DNA of 62,940 nt, filler included, from Candidatus Woesearchaeota archaeon (GCA_023266675.1; 5 parts of 5 records of this genome joined end to end with filler, not necessarily neighbours in it), one strand, 5' to 3'. Numbered from the whole stretch's first letter, positions 30,001-33,000 are shown. A program made the numbers.

Positions 30001-33000
30001 TCATAAAAGGCTTATTGCCAATAAAGATTATATTGTCATTTCCGTCACTCATTGATAACGCCCCCTTATTATGTACTTCTTAAGATTGTATAGACTTAAA
30101 AACTTATATTTCAGGTCTTTTCATCTGTCGTGTAACATATCCAGCAATGGTATTTCTGAGTTTTTTTGAAGGGATTTTAGCAAATCTTTCAACAATTTTC
30201 TTGTTTTCGTTGAAGTCCTTCTTAAACTCTGAATGGTGCTCTTTGACAAGTTCGTTTGTTACCCTTTTAATCAACATTGTTTTAATTCTTCCCATAACCA
30301 CAATGAACAATGACTTATTTATAAAGTTTGCTGTGATGATAATTAAAAATATATCTCGCTCTTTTTTATTTATATTTTTATTACTCAATATTCTTACAGA
30401 ACTCATCAATAATCTTCACAGCTTCATCTATGTCTTCGCTTGAGACTTCTTTTTCAAACTTGAAATCTTTGACGTAATGAGTGTAAAGAGGGTCGTAGTA
30501 TTCTTTTAGCATTATTTTAGAAAATTCAAAGTAATTCTTGTTTTCTAAAAGTGTAAGCAGTTCGTCAACTTTCTTTTTACTGAGTCTTTCGGTTAGTTTT
30601 GGAACAATGGCTTTTACTTCATCTATTTTTTCCTGATTTGTGAAATAATCTTTGACAATCCTTCTGGCACGGCTTTCAATGCTGCAAGTTACTGCTAATT
30701 TTTTTGCATTAATCATCGCGTTATACACGTTTTCAGGCAAGATTATGCTTCCAATTTTTCTTGACTCTCCTTCAAGAATAAGATAGTCTCTATTTTTTTT
30801 TAGTTCATTAAACAAAAGTGTTTCAAACATTTTTTGGGTGTTTGGTTTAAGACCTACTCCTCCAAATAAAGAGCTTCGGTGTTTTGCAAGACCTTCCAAA
30901 TCAATCGCGTTTTCTAGCTTTTTTATAATTTCAGTTTTTCCTGACCCTGTTAGTCCATAAATTACAATAATCTTTTCTGGAAGGATAGCTTTTTTTATTT
31001 CATCCCTGACTAGTTCCCTATACTTCTTGTATCCTCCTTCAATCTGGTAAACCTTTAGTCCTTTTTTTAAAAAATAATCAACAAAGCATCCTGAGCGCAT
31101 TCCTCCTCTAAAACAGTAAAAAATTATTTCTTTATCTTTATAATTTCTTAATAAGTTTTCAAATTCAGAAATCTTCTGGTCAAATATTTTGTAACCAATC
31201 TCATAAGCTTTATCTTTACTTTCCTGCTTATACGTGTACCCAACAATATGTCTTTCTTCATTGTTAAGAATTGGCATATTAATTGCGCCGGGGATATGGT
31301 CTTCTTCAAACTCCTTCTCACTTCTTACGTCAAGAAAAACCACATCTTTTAATGTGAGCGCGTCATTTATTGATATCTTTGGCATAACTTTAGAATCTTG
31401 AACTAATTTAAAAGTGTATTTACTCTAATCAAAAGTTTTAAATATGTTGAGTGTTCAAAAACTTTAAATTTGGGGTGAATACTTGCTAATCTTGGTTTAA
31501 ATCAAGAACGAGGCTTATTGATTACTTATGACTGCGCCTAATATTGTTAATATTTCGACTATTAATGCTAAGACTACTTATTATACTCCGTCTGGAACAT
31601 CTGCTGTTATATTATTAGCTAACGCTGCGTCTAGTGGACACGTGTATAAGGTTAATACTGTTGTTGCTGCTAATGTTGATGGTACTAATACAATTGCTGC
31701 TACTGTTTCTATCTATACTAATGGTTCTGTTGCTCAAGGTTCTGCGCCAAGTGGCGGGACTGCGTATCCGATTGTTTCGACTGTTTCTGTTCCTGCTAAT
31801 GCGTCGATTGTTGTTGTTGAGAAGAGTGCGGCGTTTTATTTGGAGGAGGGTACTTCTATTTCTGTTACTTCAGGGACTGCCAGTAAGATTACGTTTATGG
31901 TTAGTTATGAGGATATAAGTTAAACATGAGCAGTAATCCGGGTGGATTTATAGGAACTAACCCTCTCTCTGGTGCACCACAGACTGTTGAATATTTGGTT
32001 GTAGCTGGAGGAGGTGGCGGCGGTGGATTTTTTGGCGCTGTAGGTGGCGGAGGCGGAGGCGCTGGAGGATTATTGACTGCTGCAGGGTTTGCAGTTGCAA
32101 CAGGTTCTGCTTTGACAATTACAGTTGGTGCTGGCGGAGCAGGGTCAGATTCGAATTCTGGTAATCAAGGTACAGAAGGTGGAAATTCTGTCTTTTCATC
32201 CATTACAGCGACAGGAGGCGGTGCATCTGCTGCATATAATATTGCTGCAACTCATGATGATGGTGGTTCTGGTGCTGGAGGGACACACAATCAAACTGGT
32301 GGGGCAGGTATAGCAGGACAAGGACATGATGGTGGAAATGGTGCTGGTGGTGACCCTTATACTGGTGCTGGTGGCGGTGGAGCAGGTTCAGTAGGTAAAG
32401 CATCTATCTCACAAAAACATGCTGGTGACGGCGGGACAGGAATTTGTTCTACAATTACAGGCTCACGAGTCTTTTATGCAGGTGGTGGAGGCGGCGGTGC
32501 AGCGACTGGCGCAACATCTGGGCTTGCATGTGGCGGTGGCGGTGGTGGAGCCGTAAATGATGCGGGAGGAACAGTGGCTGCAGCAAACACAGGTGGAGGA
32601 GGTAGTGGCGGTTGGAATTCTGCCAATATAACAAATGGAAATGGCGGTTCCGGCGTTGTCGTCATTCGTTACTCATCATCTTTAAATGCACCAATAGCAA
32701 CTACTGGTTCACCTACTATTACGCTTGTTGGCGGATATCAGATTTATACATTCACTTCATCAGGTACAATTACTTTTTAATGAGGAATTAAAATGAAATG
32801 TTTTACTAAACTAAACTTCATCGTTTGCATGAATCTAAGGTGTAATAAATGACTCAATATACGGGAAGATGGAATTTGAACCAAGTAAGTACAGCGATTA
32901 AGGATAGAACCTGGGTAGGCATACTTCCAAGTTTTGTTGAATATCTTGTTGTGGCAGGTGGTGGTGGTGCTGGTGGTTATTATTATTCTGGAGGTGGAGG

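What a model noticed while it worked through the whole genome (the two positions that open the first line are those of the whole stretch)
30381..31385. Bacterial-type single-chain tRNA selenouridine/geranyl transferase SelU (MnmH) kept without selenophosphate synthetase S [...]
g00196 is a full one-chain MnmH/SelU (rhodanese Cys motif plus P-loop), unlike the two-gene SelU of Methanococcales, in a genome with no SelD. Across the order 26 of 28 SelU-bearing genomes lack SelD, so the enzyme is predicted to stop at S-geranyl-2-thiouridine, i.e. lipidated tRNA in archaea.
Evidence so far: TIGR03167 314 bits over cut 220. In the same 251 order genomes SelU is over cut-off in 28 and SelD (TIGR00476) in 2, both SelU-positive; SelD under cut-off in all 13 first SelU genomes incl. 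single-contig G019. Rhodanese C-x-RGG motif kept in all 12 loci read. Searches 57, 66 and PMC9312934 passages show no such orphan SelU in archaea.
(Added by a program. Inside this text positions count along the whole contig: they may not be those of the stretch shown here. "Call 12" and the like, gene names such as g00115 and contig names such as C1 are that model's own, and its searches are not shown. The text may have been shortened before it was handed on; [...] marks where a part breaks off. The agent that wrote the report below was given it as the finding of a first reader that could run no searches.)

Follow-up and report, generated by a model that had tools for sequence, protein, structure and literature searches.

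The report
Archaeal selenouridine enzyme lacking substrate suppliers
Many small-genome, probably host-dependent archaea keep an intact bacterial-type tRNA selenium-insertion enzyme although most cannot make either of its two known co-substrates, which points to scavenged selenium or a shortcut chemistry rather than to lipid-tagged tRNA as the end product.

Summary
Window 30381-31385 (-) encodes an intact single-chain SelU/MnmH on an archaeal contig. SelD passes its cut-off in 2 of 78 SelU-bearing genomes of this archaeal class, against 37 of 40 nearest bacterial relatives. The 46 archaeal sequences tested form one clade inside bacterial SelUs and are under purifying selection.

The reading 'stops at geranyl-tRNA' is weak. 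The geranyl donor is as poorly supplied as selenium: no trans-prenyl synthase was found in 56 of 78 genomes, and an IPP-pathway marker in only 5 of 43. The cysteine essential for selenation but not geranylation is kept in 35 of 35 SelD-less sequences. A Salmonella selD mutant does not accumulate geranylated tRNA (PMC4830565).

Best reading (0.5): a complete sulfur-to-selenium exchange enzyme at U34, running on selenium and prenyl donors from host or environment, possibly hydroselenide loaded on Cys91 without SelD. No activity or expression was measured. It is a new variant of a known enzyme and directly testable in E. coli.

The parts
30381..31385 (-). [quoted passage not shown]
   Evidence: TIGR03167 314.5/219.75 and PRK11784.1-2 342.3/241; AlphaFold model mean pLDDT 93.8
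31002..31385 (-). Rhodanese domain with the SelU-type helical insertion (residues 1-128)
   Evidence: PF00581; PDB 3g5j E 7e-28 by sequence, Z 22.4, rmsd 1.1 over 127 residues
31113..31115 (-). Cys91 codon, equivalent to E. coli Cys97, in the C-x-R-G-G-x-R-S loop
   Evidence: Invariant in 29 of 29 rows of A1 and 35 of 35 SelD-less rows; codons TGT 21, TGC 14
30933..30956 (-). Walker A motif, residues 144-151; Lys150 is equivalent to E. coli Lys155
   Evidence: G144, K150 and T151 invariant
30384..30986 (-). C-terminal P-loop domain with a nucleotide-kinase-like fold (residues 134-334)
   Evidence: Best solved matches are CMP kinases and dephospho-CoA kinases, Z 9.5-9.6, rmsd 3.8-5.0 over 144-149 residues
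13159..13803 (+). C-terminal part of an NcsA/TtuA-like tRNA 2-thiolase, cut by the start of contig C5; candidate maker of the s2U34 substrate (same genome, other contig)
   Evidence: TIGR00269 89.5/62.75; NcsA model E 1.7e-39, below its cut-off; TtuA model E 1.4e-36
30104..30295 (-). Ribosomal protein S17e, downstream on the same strand; archaeal context, not a conserved partner
   Evidence: NF002242 88.1/72
29765..30052 (-). Alba; archaeal context, not a conserved partner
   Evidence: TIGR00285 103.2/88.25

Best explanation
The protein still does the whole SelU job: it binds tRNA-Lys, -Glu and -Gln whose U34 was thiolated by the NcsA-like enzyme, and exchanges the sulfur for selenium. The P-loop activates the sulfur, as in bacteria by a transient S-prenyl group from a prenyl diphosphate. 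Cys91 of the rhodanese domain delivers selenium. The cell makes neither small substrate. Prenyl diphosphate is scavenged, as these archaea must already do for their cis-prenyltransferase, or the step is bypassed. Selenium arrives as host-made selenophosphate or, more simply, as hydroselenide or a desulfurase-released selenium loaded on Cys91 with no SelD. Geranyl-tRNA would be a low-level, enzyme-bound intermediate. Shown: intact gene, family membership by sequence, all conserved residues kept, purifying selection, one archaeal clade, missing supplier genes, thiolase-like gene present. Inferred: expression, substrate, every chemical step, and the source of both donors.
For: Every column at least 95% conserved in 47 SelD-bearing bacterial SelUs and also at least 95% conserved in the 35 SelD-less archaeal ones is listed, and includes C97, R99-G100-G101, R103-S104, R129, K155 and T156. 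Only two columns conserved at 90% or more in bacteria differ (T53; T151, which is T or A). Cys is kept in 35 of 35 while its codon turns over (TGT 21, TGC 14); the next most conserved Cys column is 12 of 35. PMC4830565: C97 is essential for selenation and not required for geranylation; NaSeH alone converts mnm5ges2U to mnm5Se2U in ethanol; purified MnmH selenated without added geranyl diphosphate. dN/dS is 0.05-0.13 in the 7 unsaturated pairs of SelD-less sequences. A cis-prenyltransferase occurs in 35 of 43 SelU-positive genomes while an IPP-pathway marker occurs in 5 of 43, so prenyl diphosphates are probably already imported. A NifS/SufS-type enzyme is present in 5 of 5 genomes tested. Two genomes nested inside the clade have a Cys-type bacterial SelD, one beside YedF, and no SepSecS, so selenouridine is the only evident use of their SelD. 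Precedent: some DPANN genomes carry the co-located last three steps of the bacterial queuosine pathway (PMC8204110).
Against: No activity, product or expression was measured. Selenophosphate is labile and its uptake from a host is undocumented to my knowledge (recalled). In Salmonella, loss of selD blocks selenation in vivo, so the bacterial enzyme does not manage on free selenide; the archaeal one would have to differ, and I found no residue change that marks this. The hydroselenide reaction was in ethanol. C97 changes also lower geranylation to 26-87%, so a geranyl-only enzyme could still favour Cys. Family f94 lacks even the cis-prenyltransferase (0 of 6), so there the prenyl supply has no supporting evidence. 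The thiolase-like protein is below the NcsA cut-off in all 160 genome slots searched and could act at U54. Hosts are unknown, and some Woesearchaeota may be host-independent (PMC8421398).
Confidence: 0.5

Rival explanations
1. One reading: the enzyme transfers a geranyl or longer prenyl group to s2U34 and stops, so lipidated tRNA is the end product and tunes reading of G-ending codons.
For: SelD absent in 76 of 78. Walker A lysine, required for geranylation, is invariant. A thiolase-like gene is present in 74 of 80. The own genome has a short-chain-type trans-prenyl synthase whose stop may be an assembly error. Salmonella with 50-70% geranylated tRNA grows normally.
Against: No trans-prenyl synthase in 56 of 78, and no enrichment over SelU-negative genomes (22 of 43 against 19 of 37). 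Only 4 of 43 have both a synthase and an IPP-pathway marker. The selenation cysteine is never lost. A selD mutant does not accumulate geranyl-tRNA. ges2U pairs better with G than with A (PMC5159532), whereas the own genome uses AAA for 75% of Lys and GAA for 72% of Glu codons and already has tRNA-Lys(CUU) and tRNA-Gln(CUG); this last point is weak.
Confidence: 0.17
2. Repurposed to sulfur chemistry: Cys91 carries a persulfide or uses sulfide to restore or supply s2U34 (activate, then displace with sulfur), or the protein holds and protects thiolated tRNA. No selenium is involved.
For: It explains keeping both the cysteine and the P-loop with neither SelD nor prenyl synthesis, as in family f94 (27 of 36 SelU-positive; SelD 0 of 21 and trans-prenyl synthase 1 weak hit of 21 in the added genomes). 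The domain has a sulfurtransferase fold. PMC5029168 suggests YbbB homologues outside a complete trait may act in selenium-independent processes.
Against: The thiolase-like gene is as common without SelU (69 of 80) as with it (74 of 80), so SelU is not needed for thiolation. No sequence change marks a new function. No sulfur-relay partner recurs among the neighbours of the 30 loci read. No such activity is reported for any SelU in the passages read.
Confidence: 0.2
3. These archaea make selenophosphate, or an equivalent activated donor, with an enzyme unrelated to SelD or too divergent to be scored.
For: It would leave SelU chemistry unchanged, which fits the full conservation of its residues. 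A degenerate PurL-like protein of the same AIR-synthase superfamily lies 1.2 kb away in this genome.
Against: No SelD-profile match at E 0.001 in 37 of 37 added genomes. No AIRS-family match in 2 of 5 tested. No TusA/YedF in 5 of 5. The PurL-like gene is not a recurring neighbour. A non-homologous enzyme could not be tested here.
Confidence: 0.1
4. The pattern is an artefact or relic: SelD is missing through incomplete bins, or SelU is a decaying leftover.
For: Nearly all genomes are fragmented MAGs. SelU is patchy (41 of 401).
Against: SelD is found in 37 of 40 bacterial relatives but 2 of 78 here; it is missing from a single-contig genome; no over-cut-off SelU match has an internal stop; dN/dS is far below 1.
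Confidence: 0.03

Closest known systems
Bacterial SelU/MnmH/YbbB (E. coli b0503, Salmonella MnmH; TIGR03167)
   Same: One chain, rhodanese plus P-loop; C97, A63, G67, R129, K155 and T156 equivalents kept; the archaeal clade nests among bacterial sequences, nearest Spirochaetota, deltaproteobacterial and SAR324 rows, with weak support for which is sister.
   Different: Bacterial carriers nearly always have SelD (37 of 40; PMC5029168 reports consistency with some exceptions, mostly in draft genomes). Here SelD is in 2 of 78 and a trans-prenyl synthase in 22 of 78. The upstream thiolase is NcsA/TtuA-like, and MnmA was not found in the own genome.
Split archaeal SelU of Methanococcales (TIGR04568 and TIGR04569)
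   Same: Archaeal host, same two domains, same presumed tRNA site.
   Different: Two adjacent genes, both needed, in genomes with SelD (PMC4561486, PMC4830565). The window protein is one chain and scores far below both cut-offs. PMC4561486 found the archaeal selenouridine trait only in Methanococcales.
MnmH G67E-type geranyl-accumulating mutants of Salmonella
   Different: These need substitutions in the rhodanese insertion. The archaeal proteins keep A63, G67 and R129; positions 66, 79 and 82 vary in bacterial and archaeal rows alike, so they are uninformative.
Bacterial queuosine late-pathway genes (QueA, QueH, Tgt) in DPANN archaea (PMC8204110)
   Same: Bacterial anticodon-modifying enzymes kept in reduced archaea.
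   Different: Different base and chemistry; those genes are clustered, whereas SelU shows no recurring neighbour.

Membership tests
Single-chain SelU/MnmH (TIGR03167, PRK11784) | Whole-protein score above the curated cut-off | tested here: met
   314.5/219.75 and 342.3/241; three other PRK11784 sub-models are below cut-off
Single-chain SelU/MnmH (TIGR03167, PRK11784) | Rhodanese domain with helical insertion and catalytic Cys (E. coli C97) | tested here: met
   Cys91 aligns with E. coli C97; model matches 3g5j at Z 22.4
Single-chain SelU/MnmH (TIGR03167, PRK11784) | P-loop domain with Walker A Lys (E. coli K155) | tested here: met
   Lys150 invariant
Single-chain SelU/MnmH (TIGR03167, PRK11784) | Geranylates and selenates s2U34 of tRNA-Lys, -Glu and -Gln | not testable with these tools
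   No assay possible
Selenouridine (SeU) trait as defined in comparative genomics | SelD and YbbB/SelU in the same genome | tested here: not met
   No SelD in the own genome; 2 of 78 across the class
Selenouridine (SeU) trait as defined in comparative genomics | A U34 2-thiolase and U34 tRNAs to supply the substrate | tested here: inconclusive
   NcsA/TtuA-like gene present but below the NcsA cut-off, target position unproven; tRNA-Lys(UUU) and tRNA-Gln(UUG) read from Rfam hits, Glu(UUC) only as atypical hits
Split archaeal SelU (Methanococcales) | Two separate genes, each above TIGR04568 or TIGR04569 cut-off | tested here: not met
   One ORF; 86.9/200 and 73.5/180
Terminal tRNA geranyltransferase (proposed) | Own supply of geranyl diphosphate | tested here: not met
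   Own genome has a trans-prenyl synthase but neither HMG-CoA reductase nor IspG; both parts found together in 4 of 43. Salvage routes were not excluded.
Terminal tRNA geranyltransferase (proposed) | Loss of selenation-specific residue or gain of a geranyl-accumulating change | tested here: not met
   Cys 35 of 35; G67 97%, A63 97%, R129 100%

The most novel reading that the evidence does not exclude
This archaeal SelU clade is a self-sufficient chalcogen-exchange enzyme. It loads inorganic selenide, or sulfide, directly on Cys91 and rewrites the wobble base with neither selenophosphate synthetase nor a cell-made prenyl donor. That would be a selenium-use trait invisible to every SelD-based survey. 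If instead the donors come from the host, SelU marks symbionts whose hosts use selenium.
Probability: 0.25. Interest if true: 0.85.

Novelty: new variant of a known kind. Interest (0 to 1): 0.62.

Why it matters
SelD is the accepted marker of all selenium use, and the archaeal selenouridine trait was described only in Methanococcales with a split gene (PMC4561486, PMC5029168). Here a whole archaeal clade keeps the bacterial-type enzyme under selection without SelD and mostly without prenyl synthesis. Each outcome is new: SelD-independent selenation, host-supplied selenophosphate, a sulfur role, or prenylated archaeal tRNA. The proteins are also natural probes of an open question, whether geranylation is an obligatory intermediate of selenation, and can be assayed in E. 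coli.

Tried and rejected
Bacterial contamination of the contig: rejected; S17e and Alba are adjacent, and GC3 of selU (0.29) is close to native neighbours (0.30-0.33). A hidden divergent SelD: sub-cut-off hits scanned were ThiL or AIR-synthase-like (4 of 72 genomes' hits checked), and most SelU-positive genomes have no candidate. Missing substrate: my first searches (PF01171 and MnmA) suggested no thiolase, but the gene is cut by a contig end. A conserved gene neighbourhood: none in 30 loci of about 1.5 kb flank each side. Single-chain SelU in Methanosarcinales: three records so titled have 0.9-1.2 Mb genomes and nest inside the clade, so I treat the titles as probable mislabels. Viral carriage: no relative among 57 pattern matches. 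Expression: no RNA holder listed; the RNA run laid nothing on the prenyl synthase stretch; neither is evidence. Isopentenyl phosphate kinase salvage: inconclusive; of 9 PF00696 matches in 5 genomes only 2 were classified, both UMP-kinase-like. Promoter scan: 7 sites against 8.1 expected, and the model is bacterial. A MiaA-like prenyltransferase fold for the P-loop domain (my recalled idea): not among the listed rows, which the rhodanese domain dominates; the domain was not searched alone. Counting YbbB-positive, SelD-negative bacteria in Table S1 of PMC5029168: only part 1 of 23 was read, so no count. Earlier scan notes: none bears on this finding.

Full report
Observation. Window 30381-31385 (minus strand) is an intact 334-residue ORF. 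It passes the curated cut-offs of TIGR03167 (314.5 against 219.75) and PRK11784.1-2 (342.3 against 241), and is far below those of the two split archaeal subunits. The window is five contigs joined by N; the gene is on C6, upstream of S17e and Alba, with a third-position GC like its native neighbours. The model is confident (pLDDT 93.8): a rhodanese domain matching PDB 3g5j (Z 22.4, rmsd 1.1) and a nucleotide-kinase-like P-loop domain (Z about 9.5). The nearest named records are titled Woesearchaeota or Nanoarchaeota, from which I infer the group.

SelD. The own genome (95.9% complete) has no SelD by HMM or tblastn. In 401 genomes of the order, SelU passed cut-off in 41 and SelD in 2, both SelU-positive and of genus g36. 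In 301 high-quality genomes of the phylum SelU passed in 60, including 27 of 36 of family f94 and 12 genomes outside the order. The 37 of these not seen before had no SelD match at E 0.001. In total SelD is in 2 of 78. As control I searched the genomes behind the first 50 of 80 related loci: SelD in 37 of 40 bacteria and 0 of 10 archaeal-titled records. Kin are not independent, so I give no P value. The two g36 SelDs are bacterial-type, carry Cys, are 58.5% identical, one lies beside YedF, and no SepSecS was found.

History and selection. In a quick IQ-TREE run (LG+G4) on 46 archaeal rows and 29 of the bacterial rows, chosen by me as nearest plus spread, the archaeal rows form one clade (SH-aLRT 95) inside bacteria. 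An earlier FastTree run on 112 rows left two archaeal rows unresolved among Spirochaetota. One old acquisition from bacteria is therefore likely, not proven. Of 9 pairs of SelD-less sequences, 7 gave dN/dS of 0.05-0.13 and 2 were saturated at synonymous sites; bacterial pairs gave 0.08-0.13. The gene is maintained.

Substrate. An NcsA/TtuA-like thiolase matches in 39 of 43 and 35 of 37 SelU-positive genomes, and in 32 of 37 and 37 of 43 SelU-negative ones, always below the NcsA cut-off (the 43 include two partial SelU hits). The own copy lies in this window at 13159-13803, cut by a contig end. Reading the Rfam hits by eye gives tRNA-Lys(UUU), Lys(CUU), Gln(UUG) and Gln(CUG), and atypical Glu(UUC) candidates. 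So s2U34 is plausible but unproven.

The geranyl donor. A trans-prenyl synthase matches in 22 of 43 SelU-positive against 19 of 37 SelU-negative genomes, and in 1 of the 37 added genomes, weakly. Among genomes with SelU over cut-off it was not found in 56 of 78. HMG-CoA reductase occurs in 3 of 43 and IspG in 2 of 43, against 1 and 11 of 37. Only 4 of 43 have both a synthase and a pathway marker. Single-contig G016 has SelU and the thiolase but no SelD, synthase, HMG-CoA reductase or IspG. A cis-prenyltransferase is present in 35 of 43, but in 0 of 6 of family f94.

Residues. I compared 35 SelD-less archaeal sequences (three identical duplicates and the two SelD-bearing rows dropped) with 47 SelD-bearing bacterial ones, numbered on E. 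coli SelU. C97, R129, K155 and T156 are invariant in both groups, and A63 and G67 are at 96-100%. Only T53 and T151 are conserved in bacteria and vary in the archaea; three columns are the reverse. The cysteine codon turns over while the residue stays. The 9 loci fetched also keep the C-x-R-G-G-x-R-S motif. There is no trace of specialisation.

What the biochemistry says. PMC4830565 (abstract and passages): C97 is essential for selenation and not required for geranylation, though changes lower it to 26-87%; K155 is required for geranylation; wild-type geranylation is below 0.001 per pseudouridine; a selD mutant has about the same geranylation as selD+, with the authors' caveat that medium selenium may have been low; NaSeH converts the geranylated nucleoside chemically; purified enzyme selenated without added geranyl diphosphate, perhaps from carried-over intermediate; 50-70% geranylation did not slow growth. 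PMC9105526 (passages) supports a two-step path and tighter binding of geranylated RNA. PMC12177912 (passages) notes that longer prenyl groups are favoured and that bovine rhodanese forms a selenium adduct from selenite and glutathione. PMC5159532 (abstract and first part of the Discussion) shows ges2U pairs better with G than with A. In 678 long ORFs of the own genome AAA is 75% of Lys and GAA 72% of Glu codons.

Mechanism. Most likely (0.5) the enzyme still exchanges sulfur for selenium at U34, with both small substrates coming from outside and Cys91 carrying the selenium, either from host selenophosphate or from hydroselenide without SelD. Against this, Salmonella cannot selenate without selD, and no residue marks a changed donor. 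Rivals are a sulfur-handling or tRNA-protecting role (0.2), terminal prenylation (0.17), an unrecognised selenophosphate source (0.1) and artefact or relic (0.03). No TusA/YedF was found in 5 of 5 genomes, a cysteine desulfurase in 5 of 5, and an AIRS-family protein in 3 of 5. No neighbour recurs in 30 loci.

Known and new. By sequence the protein is a member of the single-chain SelU family; its genome fails the defining test of the selenouridine trait (SelD plus SelU). PMC4561486 (passages) found the archaeal trait only in Methanococcales, with a split gene. PMC5029168 (passages, and part 1 of 23 of Table S1) reports consistency of YbbB with the trait, and also some organisms with YbbB homologues outside a complete trait, mostly draft genomes, possibly selenium-independent; so scattered orphans in bacteria are on record and I could not count them. 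PMC1273633 (passages) found selD as the only gene linked to ybbB. PMC11227280 (passages) found no selenouridine pathway in Asgard archaea. PMC9312934 and PMC8586653 (passages) add nothing. Two DPANN surveys (PMC8421398 and PMC8204110; passages and held supplements) do not mention SelU. Searches listed no paper on SelU in this group; two searches were for background (listings only, apart from the two surveys). The library lacks most subscription journals, bioRxiv supplements are closed, and public databases may already label these proteins MnmH, so the claim is 'not found in these searches'.

Unpublished genomes. G183, G303 and G551 are among the 78 and need their depositors' permission; without them SelD is in 2 of 75. 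G303 also supplies one alignment row and one dN/dS pair. G245, G208, G132, G315 and G210 appear in the tallies but carry no claim.

Verdict. Observation confirmed and extended beyond the order; interpretation partly supported; a new variant of a known kind; interest 0.62.

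Noticed in passing
L031:1420-2532 and L032:1465-2902 (G155, G224, genus g36): Bacterial-type Cys-containing SelD, one followed by YedF, in two SelU-positive genomes without SepSecS: an apparently complete selenouridine trait in archaea outside Methanococcales. The third g36 genome, G032, has SelU but no SelD match.
   Followed up: partly
window 26191-29154 (-): A 915-aa PurS-PurL-like protein far below all PurL cut-offs, followed by a PurQ-like ORF cut by the contig end. A second, about 1040-aa AIRS-family ORF on contig C75 is only 20% identical, so the window pair may be a degenerate paralogue.
   Followed up: partly
window 31528-34158 (+): Four genes divergent from selU with low third-position GC (0.20-0.24): two glycine-rich proteins (PF21722) and two without family. 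The 131-aa protein has paralogues on contigs C52, C26 and C41.
   Followed up: partly
G000:C9:2772-3881 and L044:1807-1809: In-frame TAA in one of two cysteine desulfurases and in the trans-prenyl synthase. The second reads as a sense codon in run X1, which suggests consensus errors in this assembly.
   Followed up: partly
PF01255 matches across 80 genomes: Many genomes have a second, weaker cis-prenyltransferase-like match; 12 matches in 11 genomes, all weaker-scoring, contain one in-frame stop (TAA, TAG or TGA). Unexplained.
   Followed up: no
L047, L050, L052: Records titled 'uncultured Methanosarcinales' have 0.9-1.2 Mb genomes and SelU sequences nested within this clade; the titles are probably wrong.
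   Followed up: partly
80-genome panel: IspG is rarer among SelU-positive genomes (2 of 43) than among SelU-negative ones (11 of 37); possibly only a lineage effect.
   Followed up: no
G000:C68:145-4512, C57:7703-7818, C78:1-109: A cluster of atypical tRNA-like genes on C68 and two long, similar tRNA-like elements on C57 and C78.
   Followed up: no
L013 (G367, family f94): Its SelU groups with sequences of family f140 from outside the order (support 99) rather than with other f94 rows, which suggests transfer within the class.
   Followed up: no
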